Positions 10,414 through 39,132 of a stretch of DNA of 41,246 nucleotides are shown here, in pieces. Numbering within the stretch: position 1 is the first letter of the stretch; each line of letters starts with the position of its first letter. The DNA is taken from positions 1-41,246 of the forward strand of contig JANYCH010000226.1 of assembly GCA_025360395.1 (NCBI GenBank). Reading direction: 5' to 3'. A model generated the notes under the pieces. The model was not told the DNA's origin and did not search any database. It saw only the letters and a list, made by a program, of their open reading frames with translations. The stretch is from Cytophagales bacterium. Its GTDB lineage: Bacteria > Bacteroidota > Bacteroidia > Cytophagales > UBA9547. The position numbers and the translations under genes were made by a program.

Positions 10414-13400
10414 ATGAGATCATTTCACAGAATTATAGTTTCGGGTCTGTTAGTCCTACTATCACATTGTGTAAATGCTCAAAATTGCTTTTGGAAATTA
10501 ATTTCTGCTAAAAACCATCATACACTTGCCATTAAGTCTGATGGAACACTTTGGGGCTGGGGAAATAATGAATATGGCCAATTGGGAGATGGGTCAACTA
10601 TTAATAAAAACAGCCCGGTTCAAATCGGGAATGAGAATAAATGGATACAAATTGCAACAGGCTACAACCACAGTTATGGAATAAAATCTGATGGGACACT
10701 TTGGTCATGGGGTAATAATTATTATGGTCAATTAGGCGATAAATCTTACATCGACAAAACCAGCCCTGTAAGGGTTGGTACAGATTCCAACTGGATTTAT
10801 ATTTCTTCAGGCTGGCATCATGGAATTGCTGTTAAGTCTAATGGAACAATTTGGGGATGGGGTTTAAATAATTATGGACAAGTGGGGGATGGTTCTGTTG
10901 ACAACAAAAACCAGCCAACACAAGTAGGTTCTGATAATACATGGTCTTTAATCAGTTGTGGAAATTCCCATAGTATAGCTTTAAAATCTAACGGCTCGCT
11001 TTGGGCATGGGGTTTAAACAGCAATGGGCAAATAGGTGACGGTACAAATGTTGAAAAACATATACCTACTCAGGAAACCAGCGGATCGAGCTGGAAAAAA
11101 ATCATTACTTCTTCTGAACATAATCTGGGTATAAAGTCTGACAATACTTTATGGGCCTGGGGATCAAATTATTCTGGTCAGCTTGGTGATGGTACAAAGA
11201 CCAGCAAACTTAGCCCAGTTCAAATCGGACTTCCAGAATGGAAAAATATTGCAACAGGTGAGGAAGGGAGCTTGGGAATCAAATCTGACGGAACACTATG
11301 GGGTTGGGGATCGGACCAATATGGTCAAATAGGTGATGGAAGCTCTGTCGGAAAGAGAAATCCCGTACAAGTAGGCGTTGATAATAACTGGGCTAACATT
11401 TTTTCAGGATCGTTTCATTCACTGGGATTAAAATCGGATGGTACTTTTTGGGCATGGGGTAACAATGATCTTGGTGAAGTGGGTGATGGAACGAATGTAA
11501 ACAAATATTATCCTACTCAAATTGCAAATGGAAACTGCATTAGCTCTAATCTTTTTTGGATACCTGATGGTAATTTGCGCCTTTATTTAAAAAATCAATA
11601 CCCAGCATGTTTCACCAGTTCGGATTACTTGAATACTGATTGCGCAAACAATGCTGCTATAAATTCTATTTTAATTTCCGGGAAGCAAATTTCAAATTTG
11701 GATGGGATCCAATATTTTTCAAATCTCACTTCTATTGATTGCAGAAGTAATAATCTTACATATTTGCCTGCACTGCCTCCTGCTCTAAACACTTTTATTT
11801 CAAGTCAAAATTGTTTCTGTTCTCAAATCCCTAACCGGCCAGTATCATTTCCAGCATCCGGAACCTGGCAGATTACACCGAACAAGGTAAGTTGTACCAC
11901 CCATTTAAGTTTGCCCATAAGTCCGATTGTTACAGATATCAATACACCGACAACTCTTTTAATCGGAAAAGCTATTTATTTCAATGGAACAAACTCCCAT
12001 ATTGATTTTCCTTCCTTTGCGATGGCAGAATCTCCAGTCACGATTGAATTTTGGGCTAAACCTGAGGTTTCTAATTCATCAAAATCTGTCATCTTAAACA
12101 TTGGCGGAGCAAATGGTATCATCATTTCAAAACCAGATGCTATTAACAATCTAAATTCTACGAATTTTACTTATGGTTCAGGAGGGGATGTTCCGGTAAT
12201 AAACGTTCCAGAATCTTCTAACTGGAACCATTATGCATTTACCTGTACAGGAAAGGCGGGTACCTATAATTTTTATCTTAACGGTGAGCTTATTAAATCA
12301 GGTAACCTTTCAAATTTAAGTATTAGTTTGTCTGGTTTAATCATTGGATCAGGTAATACATTAACAGATTTTTACAAAGGTTATTTACATGACATGAGAA
12401 TCTGGAAAAAAGTAAGGACTCAGGATGAAATTGTTTCCACAATAAATTCATTTAATGACTTCACTAATAATGACCTGATAGGGGCTTACAAATTAAATGA
12501 GGGAAATGGATTTGTTCCTAAAGACTATTCCACTAAAAATATCGGTGGCAGCATTTCGAATTGCTCCTGGGGCGATATTGATAATCAAGCTGTTTATGCC
12601 TGGTCTCCGGGAACTTATCTTTCAGGTTCTTCCGGTCAGAATGTTAATTTCAATTCTTCTGTTCCCAACAATTATTCTTATACCATAACTGCCAGCAAAC
12701 AAGGTTCTTGTCAAAGCTCACAAACTATCAGCATAACAGCAAAAAATAATATCGGAAGAGATTTTGCCAGCCCTATCCAAATTGGAAATTTAAACTATGG
12801 TGCTAATTACAGTAATACTCAGAATAATAGCCCATCAAATGGTTTTAGAAACGATGTAGGTCAGCCTAGCGACGACATATTTTATTCATTTACGATAAGC
12901 CAGAGCTCTAATGTTACAATTAGCCATTGCAATTCTGGCTTGTCGGACACTTATTTACACCTGTTTAATTCTAGCAGGACTTTGATAAATTCAAATGACG
13001 ATTATGGGCCTTCCTGTCAAAATTATAGGGCTTCCCTAACCAACAACTTAGCACCGGGAACATACTATATTGCAAGTGAGGGATATAATCTGAATGCCGG
13101 AGATATAACAACTGAAGTAAAAGTTCAGGAATGCGTTTCAATGCCAGGTACTAATTATTTAAATCCTATTGTGATCAGTAATAACATAGGATCGTGCTTT
13201 TCTTATAATGATGTTAAAAATAATGCTGCTTGTTATGGTAATGATTATGGTCAGCCAAGTGAAGATATATTTTACAAATTCACATTAAACTCAACGCAGA
13301 CAGTCACAATATCAAATTGCGGATCAGAAATTACTGATTCATACATGACTTTGCTAGATGCAAACGGAAACTATTTTGATTCAAATGATGATAGCCCTAA

Positions 13401-13830
13401 TTGTTCAGCCAGTTTACAATCTTATTTAAAAAGAGACTTGCCTGCAGGAACGTATTATATTGTTGAGGAAGGTTATGGCAGTTCTTCTGGTTTTATTAAA
13501 GTAACCTTTAAGACTGGTACTAATTGCAGAACTGAAGATCCTGAAGTTTCAAATGAAAAAAATCCAGTCAACAAGGAGTTAGAAATTATCTCCACCTCCA
13601 TTTCTCTTTTTCCAAATCCGGCAAATGGAGTCGTGACGTTAAATATTCCGGATAATAATGAAAATACTTTGGTAGCAATTAAAGATATTTCCGGTAAAAT
13701 TGTCCAATCAATTCAAACCAGTTCAATCCTAACAGAGATCAACACTTCTGAATTAAACAGTGGGATGTATTATGTTTCTTTCCAATATAATAACCGAATA
13801 GAAAACTTAAAGCTTCAAATTACCAAGTAA
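10414..13830 (+). CDS. Secreted multidomain protein: signal peptide, 7-blade RCC1-like beta-propeller, LRR-like segment, LamG/concanavalin-like domain, two PPC (pre-peptidase C-terminal) domains, T9SS C-terminal sorting domain
   Basis: The N-terminal signal is MRSFHRIIVSGLLVLLSHCVNAQ. Seven repeats of ..SDGTLWGWGNNxYGQLGDG.. follow. The LamG-type motifs are FNGTNSHIDFP...IEFWAKPE...NWNHYAFTC...YLNGELI...GYLHDMRIWKK. Two paralogous ~120-aa modules (GQPS.DIFY.FT....VTIS.C......D.Y..L......NS.NDD...C......L.PGTYYI..EGY) come next. The terminal LFPNPANGVVTLNI...GMYYVSFQYNN...LQITK matches the Por/T9SS tail pattern. Confidence 0.9.
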   Translation: MRSFHRIIVSGLLVLLSHCVNAQNCFWKLISAKNHHTLAIKSDGTLWGWGNNEYGQLGDGSTINKNSPVQIGNENKWIQIATGYNHSYGIKSDGTLWSWGNNYYGQLGDKSYIDKTSPVRVGTDSNWIYISSGWHHGIAVKSNGTIWGWGLNNYGQVGDGSVDNKNQPTQVGSDNTWSLISCGNSHSIALKSNGSLWAWGLNSNGQIGDGTNVEKHIPTQETSGSSWKKIITSSEHNLGIKSDNTLWAWGSNYSGQLGDGTKTSKLSPVQIGLPEWKNIATGEEGSLGIKSDGTLWGWGSDQYGQIGDGSSVGKRNPVQVGVDNNWANIFSGSFHSLGLKSDGTFWAWGNNDLGEVGDGTNVNKYYPTQIANGNCISSNLFWIPDGNLRLYLKNQYPACFTSSDYLNTDCANNAAINSILISGKQISNLDGIQYFSNLTSIDCRSNNLTYLPALPPALNTFISSQNCFCSQIPNRPVSFPASGTWQITPNKVSCTTHLSLPISPIVTDINTPTTLLIGKAIYFNGTNSHIDFPSFAMAESPVTIEFWAKPEVSNSSKSVILNIGGANGIIISKPDAINNLNSTNFTYGSGGDVPVINVPESSNWNHYAFTCTGKAGTYNFYLNGELIKSGNLSNLSISLSGLIIGSGNTLTDFYKGYLHDMRIWKKVRTQDEIVSTINSFNDFTNNDLIGAYKLNEGNGFVPKDYSTKNIGGSISNCSWGDIDNQAVYAWSPGTYLSGSSGQNVNFNSSVPNNYSYTITASKQGSCQSSQTISITAKNNIGRDFASPIQIGNLNYGANYSNTQNNSPSNGFRNDVGQPSDDIFYSFTISQSSNVTISHCNSGLSDTYLHLFNSSRTLINSNDDYGPSCQNYRASLTNNLAPGTYYIASEGYNLNAGDITTEVKVQECVSMPGTNYLNPIVISNNIGSCFSYNDVKNNAACYGNDYGQPSEDIFYKFTLNSTQTVTISNCGSEITDSYMTLLDANGNYFDSNDDSPNCSASLQSYLKRDLPAGTYYIVEEGYGSSSGFIKVTFKTGTNCRTEDPEVSNEKNPVNKELEIISTSISLFPNPANGVVTLNIPDNNENTLVAIKDISGKIVQSIQTSSILTEINTSELNSGMYYVSFQYNNRIENLKLQITK
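10534..11530 (+). repeat. Seven in-frame tandem RCC1-blade coding repeats with a 150-nt period (one spacing is 147 nt)
   Basis: The motif aa(a/g)tc(t/g)(g/a)a.gg.ac..t.tgg...tgggg recurs at 10534, 10684, 10834, 10984, 11134, 11281 and 11431. Confidence 0.9.
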
Positions 13831-18390: not shown

Positions 18391-20163
18391 TTACGATTCC
18401 TTTCTAAAATATACCTTAAATGCACTTCCCTTATCTATTTCACTTTCAACCTCAATTTTTCCTCCGGCATTTTCAACTATTTTCTTCACCATATAAAGTC
18501 CAACTCCGGTACCTTCAACATGGTTATGTAACCTGCCGAACATGGCAAATAGTTTATTCTTTTTGCTCATATCTATTCCCAGACCATTGTCTTTTACTGT
18601 AATGGTCTGGAAATTGTCTTCATGTCCACACTCAATTGTAATTTCAGGCCTTCTTTCAGGATGTGAGTATTTTATGCTGTTTGACAAAAGATTATAAATT
18701 ATACTTCTGATGTTTTTTCTTGAAGTAAAAATTGAATCACAATGATCCACATCAATATTTATTAATGCATTTGATTTTCTGACACTAGTGGAAAGGTCTA
18801 ATAATACTTCATCAATAATTTCATGAACAATTACAACGTTCATTTCCTGTTCACTTGCCTTTTGTATCCGGCTGATGTCTGTTAAGTCTTCGATGGTTTT
18901 CTTGAACCTATCTACCGAAGTTTCTATGAAACCTAATAGCATATTTGAGGTATCGTCCTTTTCGTTTTGATTTAGATTTTCCTGTAATGCCGTAACCAGG
19001 CCTTCTATATTGGAAATTGGCGCCTTTAAGTCGTGAGACGCAGTGTAAATAAAGTTATCCAGATCATTGTTTATAGTTATCAATTGCTGGTTTGTTTCTT
19101 CCAATTCCTCAATAGTTGTCCGTAATTCCTCGTGGGCAGTCTGCAATTCCTCATTTGATGTTGCTAATTCCTGGTAAAGCGATTCCAGTTCCTTTTTGGT
19201 TTTAACCTGGGCTGTGACCTCAAATACAAATGCCAAAACTCCATCAACTATGCCATTATCATCCCGGCGGGGATGGTAAATAAAATTGAAATACCTGTCT
19301 TCCAGGTTATTATTAATATGATTGGTGAGAGGTACATGGATTTCTTTGCCTTCAAAGGGCTGCCCCGATTCCTGAACCTGTTTAAGTATTTGATAAATAT
19401 CCTGTTCCCTTATTTCCGGCAAAGCTTCCAGAATTGGTTTATTCATAAGATCACGACCAGGCAATAATTGCTGATATAGAGGATTAACAAGTTCAAACAC
19501 AAGTTCCGGTCCATCTAATACACAAATGCCTGCAGGTGCCTGCATAAAAAACCTTTCCAGTTTGTCCTTTACCCTTTTAATACCCGATTGGGCTTGCAAC
19601 AATTCTACCGTTCTTTCTGTGACTTTAATTTCAAGATCGTTGTTTAGCGATTCAAGTAATTGTTTGGTAGCCAATAGTTCCGAATTCAGGTCAAAGGCTT
19701 TTTCCTTTGCTTGCTTTTCTTCGTAATGGGATATTGTTAATTCTTTGGCAACATTATTCAGCCTTTCCTCTAGCAGTTTTTCCTCGTGAATATCTGTATT
19801 GGTCCCTACCCAACGCAATAAATTACCATTATTATCTTTCACCGGTAAAGCATGTATAACATGCCAACGATATGTATGGTCATGCTTTAAAATGCGTGCA
19901 TTTACCCTGTATGGTTCAAAGGTTTTTAGTGAATGGGTCCATAAAATGACTAATGCTGGCAAGTCTTCCGGATGTATTGCACCTGCCCATCCTTGTCCTT
20001 TAGATTCGTCATAAGTCCAATGTGAATACTTATACCATTGCTCATTAAAATAATCCAGACTTCCATCTGGTTTTGCTGTCCATACCTGGTGAGGTATAAC
20101 ATCCATTAAACCTGAGTTTAAGGTTTCCTCAATATTAATATTAGTGTTTGAGCCCTGGGACAT
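18391..20163 (-). CDS. Cytoplasmic PAS-PAS sensor histidine kinase with no adjacent response regulator
   Basis: 590 aa with no obvious transmembrane segment. It has two PAS-like modules (..W.A.PDGSLDYFN..W; FFMQAPAGICVLDGPELVFELVNP) separated by coiled coils. The H-box is ASHDLKAPISNIEG, and the HATPase motifs are NLLSNSIKYS, DNGLGID and GTGVGLYMVKKIVE. Confidence 0.9.
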   Translation of the reverse strand: MSQGSNTNINIEETLNSGLMDVIPHQVWTAKPDGSLDYFNEQWYKYSHWTYDESKGQGWAGAIHPEDLPALVILWTHSLKTFEPYRVNARILKHDHTYRWHVIHALPVKDNNGNLLRWVGTNTDIHEEKLLEERLNNVAKELTISHYEEKQAKEKAFDLNSELLATKQLLESLNNDLEIKVTERTVELLQAQSGIKRVKDKLERFFMQAPAGICVLDGPELVFELVNPLYQQLLPGRDLMNKPILEALPEIREQDIYQILKQVQESGQPFEGKEIHVPLTNHINNNLEDRYFNFIYHPRRDDNGIVDGVLAFVFEVTAQVKTKKELESLYQELATSNEELQTAHEELRTTIEELEETNQQLITINNDLDNFIYTASHDLKAPISNIEGLVTALQENLNQNEKDDTSNMLLGFIETSVDRFKKTIEDLTDISRIQKASEQEMNVVIVHEIIDEVLLDLSTSVRKSNALINIDVDHCDSIFTSRKNIRSIIYNLLSNSIKYSHPERRPEITIECGHEDNFQTITVKDNGLGIDMSKKNKLFAMFGRLHNHVEGTGVGLYMVKKIVENAGGKIEVESEIDKGSAFKVYFRKES

Positions 20164-20355
20164 ATAATCAAAAAACAGGTTTTAACAATTTTGTTTATAT
20201 CCTAAGGAGTAAATTGGATTGTTGAAGTTATGTATTTTAAAATCAGATTAAAATAAATATCTAATATAAGCGAGTGAACATGGTAAACCGGTTTTTATGC
20301 TTTAAGCTATTACACTTAGATTCTATGAAAATTATATTTAACATTTAATATTTTC

Positions 20356-20363
20356 TACCTTTG
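20356..20363 (+). promoter_or_regulatory. -7 promoter motif TAccTTTG upstream of the gp25-like gene
   Basis: Lies 17 nt upstream of the ATG at 20380, in the 216-bp divergent region shared with the histidine kinase. Confidence 0.45.
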
Positions 20364-20379
20364 AAATATTTGTATCCAA

Positions 20380-20817
20380 ATGGAAAAAGAATTCTATCAA
20401 TATCCAATCCATCTATCAAGAATATTGCAAAATAAGGAATTGCCACTTTGCAGCATTGGAGAGTCCATATCACAAAATCTTCAACTCATTATTATCAGTC
20501 ATCACGGCGAACACCGCTATAACCTAACTTTCGGTTGTGAAATATGGGATATGGATTTCGATCTTATCATGAGTTTAAAATTATGGGAAGAAAAACTGAG
20601 AAAATCGCTGGAACATTCAATTAAGGAAAATGAGAAGCGGATCGAAAAAACAGACATAGAGATAAGGATTTCAGAAGTTGAAAAGGTTTTTGGTAATGCC
20701 AAGTATGCTTCTGTAAAACGTAAAGTCGATATTTTTATTAAGGCTCAGATAGTTGATAGTGGAGAATCCTACAGATTTAATACTGATCTATATTTAAGTC
20801 CAATTTCTTATAATTAA
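20380..20817 (+). CDS. GPW/gp25-family baseplate wedge protein (TssE-like)
   Basis: 145 aa. SIGESISQNLQLIIISHHGEHRYNLTFGCEIWDMDF parallels T4 gp25 SIKNSLLGIITTRKGSRPFDPEFGCDL. The downstream SIKENEKRIEKTDIEIRISEV parallels the gp25 E(P)RI...V.V segment. Confidence 0.75.
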   Translation: MEKEFYQYPIHLSRILQNKELPLCSIGESISQNLQLIIISHHGEHRYNLTFGCEIWDMDFDLIMSLKLWEEKLRKSLEHSIKENEKRIEKTDIEIRISEVEKVFGNAKYASVKRKVDIFIKAQIVDSGESYRFNTDLYLSPISYN

Positions 20818-20822
20818 GGTCT

Positions 20823-22631
20823 ATGAGTGTCCAAACAAAAGAAGACATAAAAGGAAGAATATTAAAACATATTTCGGCAATCTGGGGTGTAAAAAATACA
20901 GATTCGCTTGATCCACTTGTAAGAATGCTAATTGAAGCATTATCAGGAGAACTTCATAAAACAAACCAGGAGATTATTGAATTTGAAAAAAGGATATTAG
21001 AAAAAATTTCCTTCATCATGACGCCTTCTTTGTTATCGACGCCACATTGTGCACATGGTATTATGCATGCTTATCCTACAGAAAGCATTCAATACATTAA
21101 TGCAACTACATCTTTTGTCATAAAAAAGAAATTAGCAGAGCAAGAATCAGGAATAGATTTATTTTTTACGCCAATAGGCAAAGTAAAACTTGTAGATGGC
21201 ATGGTTAAATATGTCATCGCTGGAAACTCGATATTTGAATATGATCAAAACATGCAAAAATCGATTCTGGCCAACAGTATAGATAATACTTCAGAAAAAT
21301 CGAAGATATGGATCGGATTGCAAATTGATAAGCCAACTGTTTTAAGTTTTTATATTGACTTTTTAAATGTAGAAAATAAAATCCCTTTGCTTTCGGCAAT
21401 AAAAACTGCTGAATGGAAAATGGAAGATAAGCTCCTGAAAGTTGGTTTAGCTGAAGAGAGTTTCGAAGTCACAAGGTCAGTTCAGAACATATTTGAGGTT
21501 AATGACCCTATGTTTATGATCGAAAAAGAGGTTAATAACTTCTATGAAAAGCAATTTACAACAGTCAGTTTTCCAGAGTTCGCGTCTTATAAATCTATTT
21601 TTCCCACAAGTTTTGAAGGAGCCTTTTCTAAAACTGAAATGAGTATTTTCAAAGAAGAACTTATCTGGATAAGTATAGAAACACAAATTCCAATAGAGGA
21701 AAAGTTGCTTAAAAGCTTTTTTGTCAGCCTAAATTCTTTCCCCATACTAAATAGAAGCCAAAAAGAAAGCGTCCACCGTTTCAAAGGAATTTCTAACATA
21801 ATCCCTGTTCGAACGGATCCTTTTGAATTATTTCTTTCTGCCAATCATTTAAAAAATAGTTCTGGAAAAGAGTACAAACAAATAACTTTTTCAGATTCAG
21901 ACAATATCAAAAAAGGAACTTATTCTATCAGAAAAGGCGGGGCAGAGAAAATGGATCCCCGTTCTGCCAAAGAATATTTAGATAATCTGATAGAACTGGT
22001 TAGAGACGAATATGCCACATTTTCTGGTTTCGGACAAGATACTGTTGGGACATTGTTAAAAGACCTGGACAAAATCCTTGTTCAGATTTCACAGAGGATA
22101 AAACTAAATAATAATTTTAACGCAGATACTACCTCATACATTTCATTAGATTCTATTGACAATAATGAGGCAGTCTTTTTGAATTACTGGACTACCAACG
22201 GTCTTTATGGCAATGGCCTATTTCAAGGTTCCAGGTTCAAATTGGCAAAAGGAAGTGAAATAAAAAAGGATTCGATGGTATTGCTGACGGCAACATCCGG
22301 AGGCAAAAAAGACCTAAAGCCTTCAAGGCATATAGAAGCGTTTAAATATGCCATGCTTACCCATGACCGGCTTATTACAGCAGAAGATTTGAAAGCGTTT
22401 TGCTTTTATGAACTCGGGGAAAAAATTGACAAGGTCGAAATCCAAAAAACCTATATCACAAGTGATAATTTAAAGGAAGGATTAGTTAAATGCATAGAAA
22501 TAATATTGTTTAAAAAATCCGGGAAATCTTTAACATCAGATCAGGAATGGGAAATTTTACTTTCGGAAGTCCAATCAAAAATGGAACTAAGGTCTGCTCT
22601 AAATTTGAAACTTAAACTTACAGTTAAATAA
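20823..22631 (+). CDS. Putative baseplate wedge subunit, TssF/gp6-like. The assignment rests on size, synteny and N-terminal resemblance only.
   Basis: 602 aa. The start is 5 nt after the gp25-like stop. The N-terminus KEDIKGRILKHISAIWGVKNTDSLDPLVRMLIEALSGELHK resembles my recollection of Bacteroidota T6SS-iii TssF N-termini. In known contractile systems a gp25-like gene is followed by a gp6/gpJ/TssF gene. Confidence 0.45.
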   Translation: MSVQTKEDIKGRILKHISAIWGVKNTDSLDPLVRMLIEALSGELHKTNQEIIEFEKRILEKISFIMTPSLLSTPHCAHGIMHAYPTESIQYINATTSFVIKKKLAEQESGIDLFFTPIGKVKLVDGMVKYVIAGNSIFEYDQNMQKSILANSIDNTSEKSKIWIGLQIDKPTVLSFYIDFLNVENKIPLLSAIKTAEWKMEDKLLKVGLAEESFEVTRSVQNIFEVNDPMFMIEKEVNNFYEKQFTTVSFPEFASYKSIFPTSFEGAFSKTEMSIFKEELIWISIETQIPIEEKLLKSFFVSLNSFPILNRSQKESVHRFKGISNIIPVRTDPFELFLSANHLKNSSGKEYKQITFSDSDNIKKGTYSIRKGGAEKMDPRSAKEYLDNLIELVRDEYATFSGFGQDTVGTLLKDLDKILVQISQRIKLNNNFNADTTSYISLDSIDNNEAVFLNYWTTNGLYGNGLFQGSRFKLAKGSEIKKDSMVLLTATSGGKKDLKPSRHIEAFKYAMLTHDRLITAEDLKAFCFYELGEKIDKVEIQKTYITSDNLKEGLVKCIEIILFKKSGKSLTSDQEWEILLSEVQSKMELRSALNLKLKLTVK

Positions 22632-22770
22632 AAAGATATTAACAGCTACATTTTAATATTTGAAACCAAATTATATTCATAACTATAATTCGGTTAATGC
22701 GTAATTACCTTTATAAATTTTTAAATAATCTAAAATATCCTTCCATTCTTTTTATAGTAATCCCAATTCC

Positions 22771-24342
22771 ATGAGAAAACTTTGTATTGCAATTATCGCG
22801 ATAATCGGCCTGTCCAGTTCAGCATTTAGCCAGGTAGTAGAAACAGAAAAAACGTATGAAATATCCCGAAAATCCAAAAGAGGATATCTTGCAGGTGTTG
22901 ATTATGACGAAAATGTTAAAACATACCAGCTAACCTATATCACGAAATTAACAGACCGTAAACTGAAGTATGAGTTTTACAAATTCGATAACAATTTTAA
23001 TTTCTTAAATGACGGGGAGGGCGAGGAAAAGTTTGAACAAATGAAAGCAAAGTTCAATTGGTTTAAATTCAGGGAACTTCTTTATACAGTAGAAGGGGTA
23101 AGTGTTGAAAACAACATAACAGGAACCCTGGTAATGAAAAGGAAAAAAGTAGATTTTAAATACGATTTCTGGATTGCTGGCTACCACAAGGAAACAACAA
23201 TCCTGGAAAAGTTAAAGCCAAAAACAGATGATGGAAGAAAAATGACCCTCATTACTTATGCTGAAGACGAAAAGACGGGTGAAGTACTTGTTCTGGCTGG
23301 CATCAAATATAAGATAGGAAAAAATATGGCTGAGAAAAACCCAAGACCATACGACCTGCATTTTATAAAGTTTAACAAAGACCTGGACATAGTGGCTGAA
23401 ACTATTATTCCTTTTGAAGACGCGGAATCAAAAACTGCAGCAAGGATCATTTATGAAAAAAATGAAGAAGATCCTGAAAATCCCGGTATACAATCGTTTG
23501 TGGTGGTAATGTCTTCTTTTGGTGATAAAAACACTAAACCAACATGCACCTACCTTCGTTTAGGTTCTGATACTAAAATATTGCATCGCGAAAGCTTTGG
23601 TTCCCTGGCTAACTATTGGAACATTGATGAAATAATCCATAATCAGGATAAAGACGAAATGTATTTATTCGGACCTTCTGTAAATGAACTTGGAAAATAT
23701 ACTAATGGCAAATTTAAAGCAGTACAGCTGGTAAAAATAAATCCGATGGGAAAGAAAGAGTATTTAACAGAAACCAACCTGGAAGAGTTTTCTTCCAAAC
23801 TTAAAACTCCACCTTCACAGAAAAAAACGCCAGAGTATGAAGGTAAAAAGTTTGAATTCAGCACTTATAAGGTTGCATCGAATGGAGACTTTTATGTTTC
23901 AGGCCAAAACTTTAAAATTGATGCTTCAGGTGACGACAAAGGTGGAAAAAATTTCAAAGATATTATGGGCTTCCAATTTGATGCAAAAGGTGTTTTAAAA
24001 TCTCAATATGGCATTGATACCAAGGAGAACGGCAAAGAAGCCAATGACAATGGAACTCCTCAGGCCTTTATAGAATCCAGCGATGGTAACATGTTTTGGT
24101 TGTTAAGGGAAATTAAAGACTATAATTCTACATATAACAAGCTTTTGACTTACCCAAGACTTGGCAAGATATCGACCAAGGAAGGTACAATTTCCGATTT
24201 CCTAACTGTTGGCAAATCTGAAGGATATTATCTAGATCCCAAATATCCATATCTTGAAACGGACAAAGGGAACAGTGTTGTCTTTTTCGGTGCAAATAAA
24301 TCCGGGAAATCTTTGTGGTTTTGCAGGGTAAATTTAAAATAA
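22771..24342 (+). CDS. Secreted protein of unknown function (Lys-rich, predicted beta-rich)
   Basis: 523 aa with a signal peptide (MRKLCIAIIAIIGLSSSAFSQ) and no recognisable catalytic motif. Same strand as the gp25/TssF-like pair, across a 139-bp gap in which I see no hairpin terminator. Confidence 0.8.
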   Translation: MRKLCIAIIAIIGLSSSAFSQVVETEKTYEISRKSKRGYLAGVDYDENVKTYQLTYITKLTDRKLKYEFYKFDNNFNFLNDGEGEEKFEQMKAKFNWFKFRELLYTVEGVSVENNITGTLVMKRKKVDFKYDFWIAGYHKETTILEKLKPKTDDGRKMTLITYAEDEKTGEVLVLAGIKYKIGKNMAEKNPRPYDLHFIKFNKDLDIVAETIIPFEDAESKTAARIIYEKNEEDPENPGIQSFVVVMSSFGDKNTKPTCTYLRLGSDTKILHRESFGSLANYWNIDEIIHNQDKDEMYLFGPSVNELGKYTNGKFKAVQLVKINPMGKKEYLTETNLEEFSSKLKTPPSQKKTPEYEGKKFEFSTYKVASNGDFYVSGQNFKIDASGDDKGGKNFKDIMGFQFDAKGVLKSQYGIDTKENGKEANDNGTPQAFIESSDGNMFWLLREIKDYNSTYNKLLTYPRLGKISTKEGTISDFLTVGKSEGYYLDPKYPYLETDKGNSVVFFGANKSGKSLWFCRVNLK

Positions 24343-24420
24343 TAAAAAATACAGAAAGGCCGGTGCAATAATCCTACCTTTTATATTCTGCTGAAAGTTT
24401 CTTTAATTAATAGGCATAAA

Positions 24421-24445
24421 AAAGCCCGGACAAGAGCCGGGCTTT
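24421..24445. terminator. Bidirectional intrinsic terminator between the convergent 523-aa gene and sdhB
   Basis: aaagcccgg (24421-24429) pairs with ccgggcttt (24437-24445). An A-run lies upstream and tttctatttt lies downstream. Confidence 0.8.
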
Positions 24446-24466
24446 CTATTTTACTGAAGCTAAAAG

Positions 24467-25240
24467 TTATTTCAGGTCAACATGCTCTGAAGTAGCCATA
24501 GCTGAATAATATTCCCTATTCATTCTTGCAATATTTGAAATAGAAATACCTTTAGGACATTCTGCTTCGCAGGCACCTGTTACGCTGCATGCTCCAAAGC
24601 CTTCTTCATCCATCTGGGCCACCATGTTCTCAACACGCGTTTTCCTTTCAACCTGTCCTTGTGGCAAAAGTGCAAGCTGCGATATTTTGGCTGAAACAAA
24701 CAACATGGCCGATGCATTTTTACATGCGGCAACACAAGCCCCACATTGAATACATGTGGCAGCATCAAACGCCTGATCTGCAATTTCTTTAGAGATAGGA
24801 ATTGCATTTGCATCAGGGACACCGCCTGTACCAACAGTTACGAAACCTCCTGCCTGCTGAATTCTATCCAGTGCCGAACGATCGGTAACAAGGTCTTTTA
24901 TAACAGGGAAAGCTTTGGCTCTCCAAGGCTCAATTACTACAGTATCACCGTCTTTGAATGAGCGCATGTGAAGCTGGCAAACAGTTACACCTTTCAATGG
25001 ACCATGTGGCCTGCCATTGATGTGTAAACTGCAGCTTCCGCAAATACCTTCACGGCAATCGTGGTCAAAAGCAATAGGTTCGTCACCTTTCCTTATCAGG
25101 CCATCGTTTACAACATCCAGCATTTCAAGAAATGACATGTCCGGAGATATTCCTGGAGCATCGTAGTCTACCATTTTACCAGGTGTTTTAGCATTTTTCT
25201 GACGCCACACCTTTAACTTAAGATTCATTGAGCCTGACAT
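24467..25240 (-). CDS. sdhB: Succinate dehydrogenase/fumarate reductase iron-sulfur subunit
   Basis: 257 aa with Cys clusters CREGICGSC...[12 protein letters not shown] and C...GACEAECP. Confidence 0.95.
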
Positions 25241-38118: not shown

Positions 38119-39132
38119 TCAACTTTTCATTATCTCAGTCGTGTTCCTAATTAAATCTTCCACCATTGGCGAGAAGTTTCTATACTGTTTCTGTTGAGCT
38201 TTAATAATATGATATGATTTCTTGGATATCTCGTCTGATGAGGTATTTGTTATAATAATTATTCTGCAAAGTTGCTCAACACAATCTCTTACAATATTTT
38301 TATTCTCAGTTCCTTTTAATACCCTCTCAAGGATTTCAAAAGCCTTATCATTTTCACCAGTCTCTGCATATAACTCTGCCAATTGTCTGTTGTAGATGTC
38401 CGTTAGGAAATCTTTATCATTTTTCTTGAGTGTCAATTTAAGTGCTTCAATCTCTAAAGCCTTGTCGGCAACATATTTTGTGTATGTCCTATATAAACCT
38501 AGCTCTTCGTAAGTCCAAGCTCTTTCCTGTTTTATCCATTCAGGTAATTTCGTTAGAAATAATTCCCTTTCATTTGTCGAATAAAGAAAATACAGTTCAT
38601 CCAGAATTGGGAATTTGTAACTTCTGAAATAGGATTTTTTATTTTCTTTCCAAGTGTCTATGTCTGCTTGCGAATAATTACAATTTCCTACTGTCTCTCC
38701 AAGATATCTTAACAATTCAGTTTTTATTGGATTGTCTACTGTTTTTAAATATTGGTAGGTTTCTTTAATGCCTGCCGAAACTAGGTATTCTTCATCAAAT
38801 CCAATTCCGCTGTCAAAATCTATATTTTTAGTTTCAAAAAACAGCCAAATGATTTCAGGTGAATTGAAAAGTGTCAGAATGAAGGCACAGAAGTATAAAT
38901 TATCAACTTCACCGTCTTTCGCATATTTTCTCCATTCCTTCTCTTCTGTAAACAGGAATCTGACTATTTCATAGTCCTTCTGTTTAAGGTCATTGTAAAT
39001 TGCAATATTTAGTCTTAAACGGTCAAAGTGTTTTGAATTTATTGCTTCTTTATCAAAGCGATAATTGTCCAAGAGTTTTAAGTTCTCCCGGACTAAGTCA
39101 AGTTCTGTTTTATATTTTTCTGTTAATGTCAA
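38119..39132 (-). CDS. Hypothetical protein, 337 aa (predicted all-alpha; no recognisable family)
   Basis: Long uninterrupted ORF in AT-rich DNA. The only possible initiator is the TTG at 39130-39132: an in-frame TAA lies 5 codons upstream, and there is no early in-frame Met downstream of it. Confidence 0.65.
   Translation of the reverse strand: MTLTEKYKTELDLVRENLKLLDNYRFDKEAINSKHFDRLRLNIAIYNDLKQKDYEIVRFLFTEEKEWRKYAKDGEVDNLYFCAFILTLFNSPEIIWLFFETKNIDFDSGIGFDEEYLVSAGIKETYQYLKTVDNPIKTELLRYLGETVGNCNYSQADIDTWKENKKSYFRSYKFPILDELYFLYSTNERELFLTKLPEWIKQERAWTYEELGLYRTYTKYVADKALEIEALKLTLKKNDKDFLTDIYNRQLAELYAETGENDKAFEILERVLKGTENKNIVRDCVEQLCRIIIITNTSSDEISKKSYHIIKAQQKQYRNFSPMVEDLIRNTTEIMKS

What the first reader, a model, noticed from the sequence alone, without database searches (positions are those of the whole stretch)
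20380..22631. Orphan gp25/TssE-like + TssF/gp6-like baseplate-wedge pair with no other contractile-machine genes nearby
ORF 20380-20817 carries a clear gp25/GPW signature (..SISQNLQLIIISHHGEHRYNLTFGCEIWDMDF.. then ..E.RIE..DIEIRISEV). It is tightly coupled (5-nt gap) to a 602-aa ORF whose size, position and N-terminus fit the TssF / phage gp6-gpJ wedge subunit. In described contractile systems (phage tails, T6SS i-iv, eCIS and tailocins) these two proteins are encoded together with sheath, tube, spike, TssG/gp7-like and TssK-like partners. Here the pair is embedded among housekeeping genes, with gatB and lysC on one side and sdhCAB on the other. Nothing within 20 kb on either side looks like a sheath, tube, VgrG, ClpV or TssG/K gene. 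The only non-housekeeping neighbours are a divergent orphan PAS histidine kinase and a same-strand 523-aa secreted protein of unknown fold. The pair could be the stray end of a split T6SS-iii locus, a decayed remnant that still has intact ORFs, or a wedge module repurposed for something else.
Basis: partly seen in the sequence, partly recalled or inferred. Interest (0 to 1): 0.7.

Follow-up and report, generated by a model that had tools for sequence, protein, structure and literature searches.

The report
Split-off T6SS baseplate gene pair
These two genes are the TssE and TssF baseplate-wedge subunits of a Bacteroidota type VI secretion system, sitting apart from the system's other genes, which is a scattered layout already described for this phylum and therefore ordinary.

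Summary
ORF 20380-20817 (145 aa) matches Pfam GPW_gp25 above its cut-off. ORF 20823-22631 (602 aa) has no direct Pfam or NCBIfam hit, but it is a real, divergent TssF: 18 of 27 aligned homologues match PF05947, and its AF2 model matches E. coli TssF (6n38) best, at E 4e-17. Nothing else in the 41-kb contig resembles a T6SS gene.

The pair is not a stand-alone module. Its orthologues (70% and 49% identity) lie at the edge of a complete T6SS-iii locus in a related contig. In other relatives they lie at the other edge, inside the locus, or 4 kb from it. Three close relatives keep the same gatB / histidine kinase / tssE-tssF / sdhBAC synteny. There the pair is intact and under strong purifying selection (dN/dS 0.04-0.09). 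One of these relatives is a Cytophagales MAG that also carries tssR-tssG on other contigs.

Bongiovanni et al. 2024 already report that T6SS-iii genes are often split over several loci and that tssF-tssE stay together. The best reading is an ordinary split T6SS-iii locus. The adjacent 523-aa gene encodes a secreted beta-propeller from a separate, widespread family and is missing in one syntenic relative. The main caveat is that the rest of this genome could not be read.

The parts
20356..20363 (+). Candidate Bacteroidota-type promoter -7 element (TACCTTTG, fits TAnnTTTG), 16 nt upstream of the tssE ATG, in the 216-bp divergent intergenic region shared with the histidine-kinase gene
   Evidence: Pattern search; sequence. 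This is an inference from the published Bacteroidota promoter consensus (my own knowledge). It was not tested and has no statistical support on its own.
20380..20817 (+). tssE, 145 aa, gp25-like baseplate wedge subunit of a T6SS-iii
   Evidence: Pfam GPW_gp25 at 33.9 bits, above the cut-off of 27.2. 70% identical over 142 aa to the TssE encoded at the edge of a complete T6SS-iii locus in L015. About 90% identical to the syntenic orthologues in L004 and L005, with dN/dS 0.039 between L004 and L005.
20823..22631 (+). tssF, 602 aa, gp6-like baseplate wedge subunit of a T6SS-iii (divergent; no direct Pfam hit)
   Evidence: 27 homologues, nearly all full-length; 18 of the 27 aligned sequences match PF05947 T6SS_TssF. 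49% identical over 600 aa to the TssF of the complete L015 locus. The AF2 model has pLDDT 80.6 and pTM 0.77. Its best PDB matches are TssF chains 6n38_H and 6n38_I (E 4e-17 and 2e-15), followed by gp6-like baseplate proteins of CIS and phages. dN/dS is 0.092 between L004 and L005.

Best explanation
The two genes form a tssE-tssF operon encoding the gp25-like and gp6-like wedge subunits of a Bacteroidota type VI secretion system (T6SS-iii). In this uncultured Cytophagales-like lineage, a rearrangement has moved the operon away from the rest of the T6SS genes and into a housekeeping neighbourhood between a PAS histidine-kinase gene and sdhBAC. By analogy with solved baseplates, the products would assemble in trans with TssG and TssK encoded elsewhere. 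Two TssF copies and one TssG form the wedge core, TssE joins the wedge to the first sheath ring, and six wedges surround the VgrG hub and dock on the TssN-R membrane complex. What is shown: the identity of both proteins, their orthology to subunits embedded in T6SS-iii loci, the conserved synteny, purifying selection, and the presence of tssR-tssG on other contigs of a sister MAG. What is inferred: that the window's own genome carries the remaining genes, that the two genes are co-transcribed, and the assembly mechanism.
For: 1. Identity of the proteins.
- TssE matches Pfam GPW_gp25 above its cut-off.
- TssF has homologues that match PF05947 and a TssF fold, with 6n38 as top match at E 4e-17.

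2. Orthologues belong to bona fide T6SS-iii loci.
- L015 encodes TssD, TssD, TssC, a 150-aa TssB-sized protein (no Pfam hit), ClpV, TssN, a 388-aa protein, TssO, TssP, TssR and TssG, then TssF and TssE at the locus edge. Its TssE and TssF are 70% and 49% identical to the window's.
- In L016 the pair lies at the opposite edge of the locus, after TssD.
- In L002 and L003 it lies inside the locus.
- In L001 it is 4 kb from TssG-TssR-TssP-TssO, with tssE inverted.
- The pair therefore behaves as a mobile sub-unit of the locus.

3. The separated arrangement is stable and selected.
- L004, L005, L006 and L007 share the window's synteny with intact ORFs.
- Between L004 and L005, dN/dS is 0.039 for TssE and 0.092 for TssF at dS about 0.83.

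4. The rest of the system exists in the lineage.
- MAG GCA_014376535.1 holds the syntenic pair on contig JACMRH010000023.1 (L004).
- The same MAG has TssR fragments on three other contigs, two of them followed by TssG. Their GC content is 0.36, like the window's.
- The MAG's TssR is 46% identical to L015's TssR. This matches the 49% TssF divergence, as expected for parts of one system.
- A further TssR-TssG scaffold, 84% identical, comes from the same sample series as L006.
- Downstream of the MAG's tssG there is a 110-aa ORF followed by non-coding DNA, not tssF/tssE as in L015.

5. Literature.
Against: - The window is a complete 41-kb contig, and the rest of its genome could not be read. The presence of tssB, C, D, G, H, I, K and tssN-R in this organism is therefore unproven.
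- The link in the sister MAG rests on binning of 1.5-3 kb contigs. These contigs occur in two or three sequence variants, so the bin mixes strains.
- Only TssR and TssG were recovered from that lineage. No sheath, tube, spike or ClpV was found.
- The window's TssF is divergent. It has no direct Pfam hit and is only 75-77% identical to orthologues whose housekeeping neighbours are 94-97% identical. This could also fit relaxed or altered constraint.
Confidence: 0.8

Rival explanations
1. Relic pair. The lineage, or at least the window's organism, has lost the rest of its T6SS-iii. tssE-tssF survive as the last intact pieces and have no current function.
For: No other T6SS gene lies in the 41 kb. 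TssF is the fastest-evolving gene of the syntenic block at 75-77% identity. Only short TssR/TssG fragments were found in the sister MAG. PMC10781749 notes that genomes may encode defective secretion systems.
Against: The ORFs are intact in the window and in L004-L007, despite synonymous divergence that is near saturation. dN/dS values of 0.04-0.09 indicate continuing purifying selection. The TssR and TssG reading frames on the sister-lineage contigs are uninterrupted, and both TssG copies are full-length.
Confidence: 0.1
2. Repurposed wedge module. TssE-TssF act outside a T6SS, possibly with the downstream secreted 523-aa beta-propeller and/or under the control of the divergent PAS histidine kinase.
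For: The HK-tssE-tssF arrangement is conserved in the window and four syntenic contigs, and the 523-aa gene follows the pair in the window and in three of those contigs. All three genes are under purifying selection.
Against: The 523-aa gene is cleanly absent from L004, where tssF and sdhB are 86 bp apart. It belongs to a much larger family, with 240 representative clusters. It is a signal-peptide-bearing propeller with no match to any T6SS or CIS component, whereas TssE and TssF are cytoplasmic. Neither the kinase nor the propeller accompanies the pair in L001, L008, L015 or L016. No TssE/TssF function outside contractile machines is known to me.
Confidence: 0.04
3. Remnant of a prophage tail, tailocin or extracellular contractile injection system rather than a T6SS.
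For: gp25-like and gp6-like proteins also occur in phages and eCIS. The PDB hits include such proteins, and PHROGs matches the 145-aa protein to a phage baseplate wedge family.
Against: The best structural matches are T6SS TssF chains. Every homologue whose context was retrieved lies in or beside loci with the T6SS-iii-specific genes tssN, O, P and R. The 602-aa protein has no PHROG hit. No integrase or other phage gene lies nearby.
Confidence: 0.02

Closest known systems
T6SS-iii of Bacteroidota (Flavobacterium johnsoniae / Bacteroides fragilis type), TssE and TssF baseplate subunits
   Same: There is full-length sequence homology to TssF proteins that match PF05947 and are named TssF by NCBI. 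The orthologues lie in loci with the T6SS-iii-specific genes tssN, O, P and R. The tssE-then-tssF order and tight coupling are retained.
   Different: Here the pair lies at least 18-20 kb from any other T6SS gene, in a housekeeping context. The TssF sequence is too divergent to hit the Pfam or NCBIfam models directly.
Multi-locus T6SS-iii organisation, e.g. Chryseobacterium, described by Bongiovanni et al. 2024 (PMC10781749)
   Same: The system is split into several genomic loci while tssF-tssE remain contiguous. That is exactly the pattern seen here.
   Different: That survey used complete RefSeq genomes. This lineage is an uncultured Cytophagales-like organism known only from metagenome contigs, so the other loci are seen only as fragments.
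Enteroaggregative E. coli T6SS-i TssF in the TssK-TssF-TssG wedge (PDB 6n38, 6giy)
   Same: It is the best structural match over the full length: E 4e-17, TM 0.43-0.48, 644 aligned columns.
   Different: Sequence identity is only 10-11%. The T6SS-i membrane complex (TssJLM) is replaced by TssN-R in Bacteroidota (PMC10781749).
Phage T4 baseplate wedge proteins gp25 and gp6
   Same: The fold family is shared. The TssE sequence matches gp25 at E 0.01. The TssF profile matches gp6 at E 0.017, and the model matches gp6 at E 2e-8 to 2e-5.
   Different: The homology is distant. No phage genes are present, and the relatives sit in secretion-system loci.

Membership tests
GPW_gp25 / TssE (gp25-like baseplate wedge protein) | Match to Pfam PF04965 above the gathering score | tested here: met
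   33.9 bits against a cut-off of 27.2, E 2.7e-8, residues 27-110.
GPW_gp25 / TssE (gp25-like baseplate wedge protein) | Match to the NCBIfam TssE equivalog TIGR03357 above its cut-off | tested here: not met
   19.5 bits against a cut-off of 53.2, E 5.9e-4. I read this as reflecting the model's training mainly on proteobacterial T6SS-i sequences (my own knowledge). It does not count against the gp25 fold.
GPW_gp25 / TssE (gp25-like baseplate wedge protein) | Orthology to a TssE encoded inside a complete T6SS locus | tested here: met
   70% identity over 142 of 145 residues to the L015 TssE, which lies next to TssF, TssG and TssR.
TssF (PF05947, gp6-like wedge subunit) | Direct match of the protein to the Pfam or NCBIfam TssF models | tested here: not met
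   No family at E <= 1 in Pfam or NCBIfam.
TssF (PF05947, gp6-like wedge subunit) | Full-length homology to proteins that do match PF05947 | tested here: met
   The 27 homologues have E-values from about 1e-298 to 1e-20, and all but one cover 93-100% of the query. 18 of the 27 aligned sequences hit PF05947, best E 4.2e-10. The NCBI name 'TssF' is given to P0004, P0014 and P0022.
TssF (PF05947, gp6-like wedge subunit) | TssF/gp6 three-dimensional fold | tested here: met
   AF2 model with pLDDT 80.6 and pTM 0.77. Foldseek top hits are 6n38_H and 6n38_I (TssF) at E 4e-17 and 2e-15, followed by 19 further baseplate gp6-like chains at E <= 1e-3.
TssF (PF05947, gp6-like wedge subunit) | Gene immediately downstream of tssE | tested here: met
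   5-nt gap on the same strand. The same order is seen in L002, L003, L015 and L016.
T6SS-iii (complete system) | Same genome encodes TssB, C, D, G, H, I, K and the Bacteroidota-specific TssN-R membrane complex | tested here: inconclusive
   None of these is in the window, and the window's genome is not available. The sister MAG GCA_014376535.1 has TssR and TssG on other short contigs. Sheath, tube, spike, ClpV, TssK and TssN-Q were not recovered for the lineage.
T6SS-iii (complete system) | TssE/TssF assemble with TssG/TssK into a wedge and are required for sheath assembly and firing | not testable with these tools
   This needs genetics or biochemistry.
Extracellular contractile injection system / phage tail | gp25/gp6 homologues accompanied by sheath, tube, tape-measure and tail-fibre genes, without tssN-R | tested here: not met
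   No such genes lie in the window. All relatives whose context was retrieved lie beside tssN, O, P or R genes.

The most novel reading that the evidence does not exclude
In this Cytophagales-like lineage, the relocated tssE-tssF operon may have been uncoupled from the T6SS. It might then serve another purpose, for example a wedge-derived scaffold controlled by the adjacent PAS histidine kinase, or a shared baseplate module supplied in trans to more than one contractile machine. This would explain why it is kept under purifying selection among housekeeping genes and why its TssF evolves faster than its neighbours.
Probability: 0.04. Interest if true: 0.6.

Novelty: new member of a known kind. 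Interest (0 to 1): 0.12.

Why it matters
It matters little beyond annotation. The window's 602-aa protein escapes the Pfam and NCBIfam TssF models, so automated T6SS detection that requires clustered genes and direct HMM hits would miss or mis-score this system. Homologue-mediated or structural searches recover it. The case also illustrates, in an uncultured Cytophagales-like lineage, the multi-locus T6SS-iii organisation already reported for Bacteroidota, with tssE-tssF as the unit that moves. It opens no new biological question unless a closed genome shows that the pair exists without a T6SS.

Tried and rejected
1. Direct HMM searches of the 602-aa protein against Pfam, NCBIfam and PHROGs gave no hit. 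Its identity had to be established through homologues and structure.

2. I tried to retrieve the 29.9-kb NCBI contig that encodes P0049. This is a full-length TssR, 70-81% identical to the sister MAG's TssR, and is the best candidate for the main locus of the window's lineage or even of its own genome. All attempts failed. The look-up of encoding contigs had no record. The genome-contig scan returned only the three MAG fragments. The listing of cluster members gave no accession or name. The metagenome-contig scan found nothing.

3. I tested whether the 523-aa neighbour is a T6SS part.
- It shows no similarity to the 513-aa gene that flanks tssF in L001.
- It has no Pfam hit in any of 46 family members.
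- Foldseek finds only generic beta-propellers at TM about 0.3.
- It is absent from L004.
It was rejected as a component.

4. I considered the PAS histidine kinase as a dedicated regulator. It is syntenic only in the closest relatives and absent next to the pair in L001, L008, L015 and L016. There is no support for this role.

5. The sigma-70 promoter and terminator scan of 20100-24500 found no more sites than shuffled sequence, so it says nothing about operon structure. The only terminator-like hairpin of note (24421-24445) follows the 523-aa gene.

6. Composition: the pair sits in a 31-33% GC stretch against 36.7% for the contig. Other parts of the window are equally AT-rich, so this is not evidence of recent transfer.
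Full report
**Observation**

The two ORFs exist as described. ORF 20380-20817 (+, 145 aa) and ORF 20823-22631 (+, 602 aa) both start with ATG and are 5 nt apart.

The 145-aa protein:
- It matches Pfam GPW_gp25 above the curated cut-off (33.9 against 27.2 bits, E 2.7e-8).
- It matches a PHROG baseplate-wedge family.
- It weakly matches T4 gp25, Pvc9 and other gp25-like PDB chains.
- It falls below the cut-off of the NCBIfam TssE equivalog (19.5 against 53.2 bits).

The 602-aa protein has no direct hit in Pfam, NCBIfam or PHROGs.

**Identity of the 602-aa protein**

- A database search found 27 homologues, nearly all full-length, at 20-77% identity. Several are named TssF by NCBI.
- Of the 27 aligned sequences (the window's protein plus 26 homologues), 18 match PF05947 T6SS_TssF when scanned individually.
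- A profile of the family weakly matches T4 gp6 by sequence (E 0.017).
- An AlphaFold2 model built on this alignment is of usable quality (pLDDT 80.6, pTM 0.77).
- The model's best PDB matches are the two TssF chains of the E. coli TssK-TssF-TssG wedge, 6n38_H and 6n38_I (E 4e-17 and 2e-15, about 640 aligned columns). Next come gp6-like baseplate proteins of Streptomyces, Photorhabdus, Anabaena and Algoriphagus contractile injection systems and of phages T4, P1 and phiKZ.

The protein is a divergent but genuine TssF.

**Surroundings**

I ran Pfam on the larger remaining ORFs of the window and read the precomputed annotations of the syntenic orthologues. From left to right the window holds:
- a ribosomal-protein operon with fusA;
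- an RCC1/Laminin-G protein with a T9SS sorting domain;
- hisIE, a hydrolase, lysC and gatB;
- a PAS histidine kinase, divergent from tssE;
- the pair, then a 523-aa ORF;
- sdhB, sdhA and sdhC;
- AraC-type regulators, a GH5 enzyme and GroEL.

A tblastn of every T6SS-iii protein taken from related loci hit only tssE (4e-69) and tssF (E 0.0). The queries were TssB to TssD, ClpV, VgrG, TssG, the putative TssK, and TssN to TssR. No other query scored better than E 0.1. The window is an entire contig, so "nearby" means 20.4 kb to the left and 18.6 kb to the right.

**What the relatives show**

The contexts of homologues form a graded series.

| Locus | TssF identity to window | Position of the pair |
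|---|---|---|
| L002, L003 (Flavobacteriia genomes) | 27-32% | Inside complete T6SS-iii loci with ClpV, TssC, TssD, VgrG, TssN, PKD/TssP-like and TssO |
| L016 | 40% | At one edge of a complete locus, after TssD |
| L015 | 49% (TssE 70%) | At the other edge, convergent with TssR-TssG and next to a housekeeping AdoHcyase gene |
| L001 | 47% | 4 kb from TssG-TssR-TssP-TssO, with two unrelated genes between and tssE inverted |
| L008 | 47% | tssE and tssF divergent next to isocitrate dehydrogenase, as in L001; the contig ends before any further T6SS gene |
| L004-L007 | 75-77% | Same synteny as the window: RCC1, hisIE, hydrolase, lysC, gatB, kinase, then tssE-tssF, then sdhBAC |

The L015 locus contains TssD, TssD, TssC, a 150-aa TssB-sized protein without a Pfam hit, ClpV, TssN, a 388-aa protein, TssO, TssP, TssR and TssG.

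The tssE-tssF unit is thus a separately transcribed module that sits at varying positions in or beside the locus. In the window's lineage it has been separated from the locus altogether.

**Not a decaying remnant**

Both ORFs are intact in the window and in all four syntenic contigs. Between L004 and L005, where synonymous sites are not saturated (dS about 0.83), Nei-Gojobori dN/dS is 0.039 for tssE and 0.092 for tssF. Housekeeping neighbours give 0.016-0.054. TssF is the fastest-evolving protein of the block (75-77% identity to the window, against 94-97% for gatB, lysC and sdh), but it is clearly constrained.

**Rest of the system in the lineage**

I searched with the TssR of L001 and found a partial TssR from MAG GCA_014376535.1. 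This is the same MAG whose contig JACMRH010000023.1 is L004, the syntenic orphan pair.
- Follow-up searches found three short contigs of this MAG with TssR fragments. Two continue into a full-length TssG and a 110-aa secreted protein.
- An 84%-identical TssR-TssG scaffold comes from the same sample series as L006.
- GC content of these contigs (0.36-0.37) matches the window's (0.367).
- The MAG's TssR is 46% identical to L015's TssR. This parallels the 49% TssF divergence, as expected if TssR/TssG and TssE/TssF belong to one system.
- Downstream of tssG in L013 there is a small ORF, about 600 bp of non-coding DNA and a heptamer repeat at the contig end. tssF/tssE do not follow, unlike in L015.

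Caveats:
- The contigs are short.
- They occur in two or three variants, so the bin mixes strains.
- Only TssR and TssG were recovered.
- The window's own genome could not be examined.
- A full-length TssR on a 29.9-kb NCBI contig (P0049, 70-81% identical to the MAG's) would probably settle the matter. It could not be retrieved by any route.

**Literature**

Bongiovanni et al. 2024 (PMC10781749) surveyed 1,253 complete Bacteroidota genomes. [quoted passage not shown] They also report that tssFE, tssBC and tssDI are the conserved co-localised pairs, matching physical interactions. Abby et al. 2016 (PMC4793230) also noted T6SS-iii components, including TssE, outside the main locus.

**The third gene and the kinase**

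The 523-aa ORF (22771-24342) has a signal peptide.
- It is 90% identical in L005, with dN/dS 0.03.
- It is cleanly absent from L004, where tssF and sdhB are 86 bp apart.
- It belongs to a large family, with 240 representative clusters at E <= 1e-3. No Pfam model matches any of 46 members tested.
- A confident model (pLDDT 90, pTM 0.88) is an all-beta propeller. It resembles only generic propellers at TM about 0.3, such as CylK, WDR91 and carotenoid oxygenases.
- It is unrelated to the gene flanking tssF in L001.

I treat it as an independent neighbour. The PAS histidine kinase is syntenic only in the closest relatives and is not linked to the pair in L001, L008, L015 or L016. A motif fitting the Bacteroidota -7 promoter element (TACCTTTG) lies 16 nt upstream of the tssE start. 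This is suggestive only.

**Mechanism**

The mechanism is inferred from solved baseplates and from PMC10781749. TssF is expected to form the (TssF)2-TssG wedge core with a TssG encoded elsewhere. TssE binds the wedge and connects it to the first sheath ring. TssK links the wedge to the cytoplasmic domain of TssN in the TssNQOPR membrane complex. None of this was tested here.

**Verdict**

This is an ordinary, functional-looking tssE-tssF operon of a split T6SS-iii locus in an uncultured Cytophagales-like bacterium (confidence about 0.8). The rivals are:
- a relic pair after loss of the system (0.1);
- a repurposed module (0.04);
- a phage or eCIS remnant (0.02).

It is a new member of a known kind, and interest is low. 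The one useful point for annotators is that this TssF clade escapes the standard HMMs and would be missed by cluster-based T6SS detectors.

Noticed in passing
window 22771-24342 (+): A 523-aa secreted protein of a large uncharacterised family: 240 representative clusters at E <= 1e-3, and no Pfam model matches any of 46 members. The AF2 model is confident (pLDDT 90, pTM 0.88) and shows an all-beta propeller that resembles known propellers only weakly (TM about 0.3). The gene is present in L005-L007 but cleanly absent from the syntenic L004.
   Followed up: yes
window 18391-20163 (-): A 590-aa cytoplasmic histidine kinase with PAS, PAS, HisKA and HATPase domains and no adjacent response regulator, transcribed divergently from tssE. 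It is conserved in synteny (80-83% identity) only in the closest relatives. Any regulatory link to the T6SS genes is untested.
   Followed up: partly
window 10414-13830 (+): A 1138-aa protein combining seven RCC1 repeats, a Laminin_G_3 domain, PPC domains and a C-terminal T9SS sorting domain (Por_Secre_tail). It is conserved at the same position in L004-L006.
   Followed up: no
window 38119-39132 (-): A 337-aa ORF with a TTG start and no Pfam match at E <= 0.001. It also has no similarity to any T6SS-iii protein by tblastn.
   Followed up: partly
L004 / L009-L013 (GCA_014376535.1, JACMRH01): The sister MAG is labelled 'Opitutaceae bacterium' (Verrucomicrobiota) in protein records but 'Cytophagales bacterium isolate LF-bin-49' in the genome record. 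Its gene content (T6SS-iii, T9SS-sorted proteins) fits Bacteroidota. The bin holds two or three sequence variants of the same tssR-tssG region, which indicates mixed strains.
   Followed up: partly
L013 2930-3029: A perfect heptamer tandem repeat (TATTAAC, 14.3 copies) runs to the end of the contig, about 600 bp downstream of the ORF that follows tssG. It probably explains why assembly of the main T6SS locus broke here.
   Followed up: partly
L012 2035-2367 and L013 1973-2305: A conserved 110-aa protein with a signal peptide is encoded immediately downstream of tssG in both variants of the sister MAG. Its function is unknown, and it occupies the place where tssF/tssE lie in L015.
   Followed up: no
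L003 15176-16981: A 601-aa protein with Gasdermin_protease and TIR_2 domains, followed by a type I restriction-modification system, lies directly next to the T6SS-iii locus of Pareuzebyella sediminis. This looks like a defence island abutting the T6SS.
   Followed up: no
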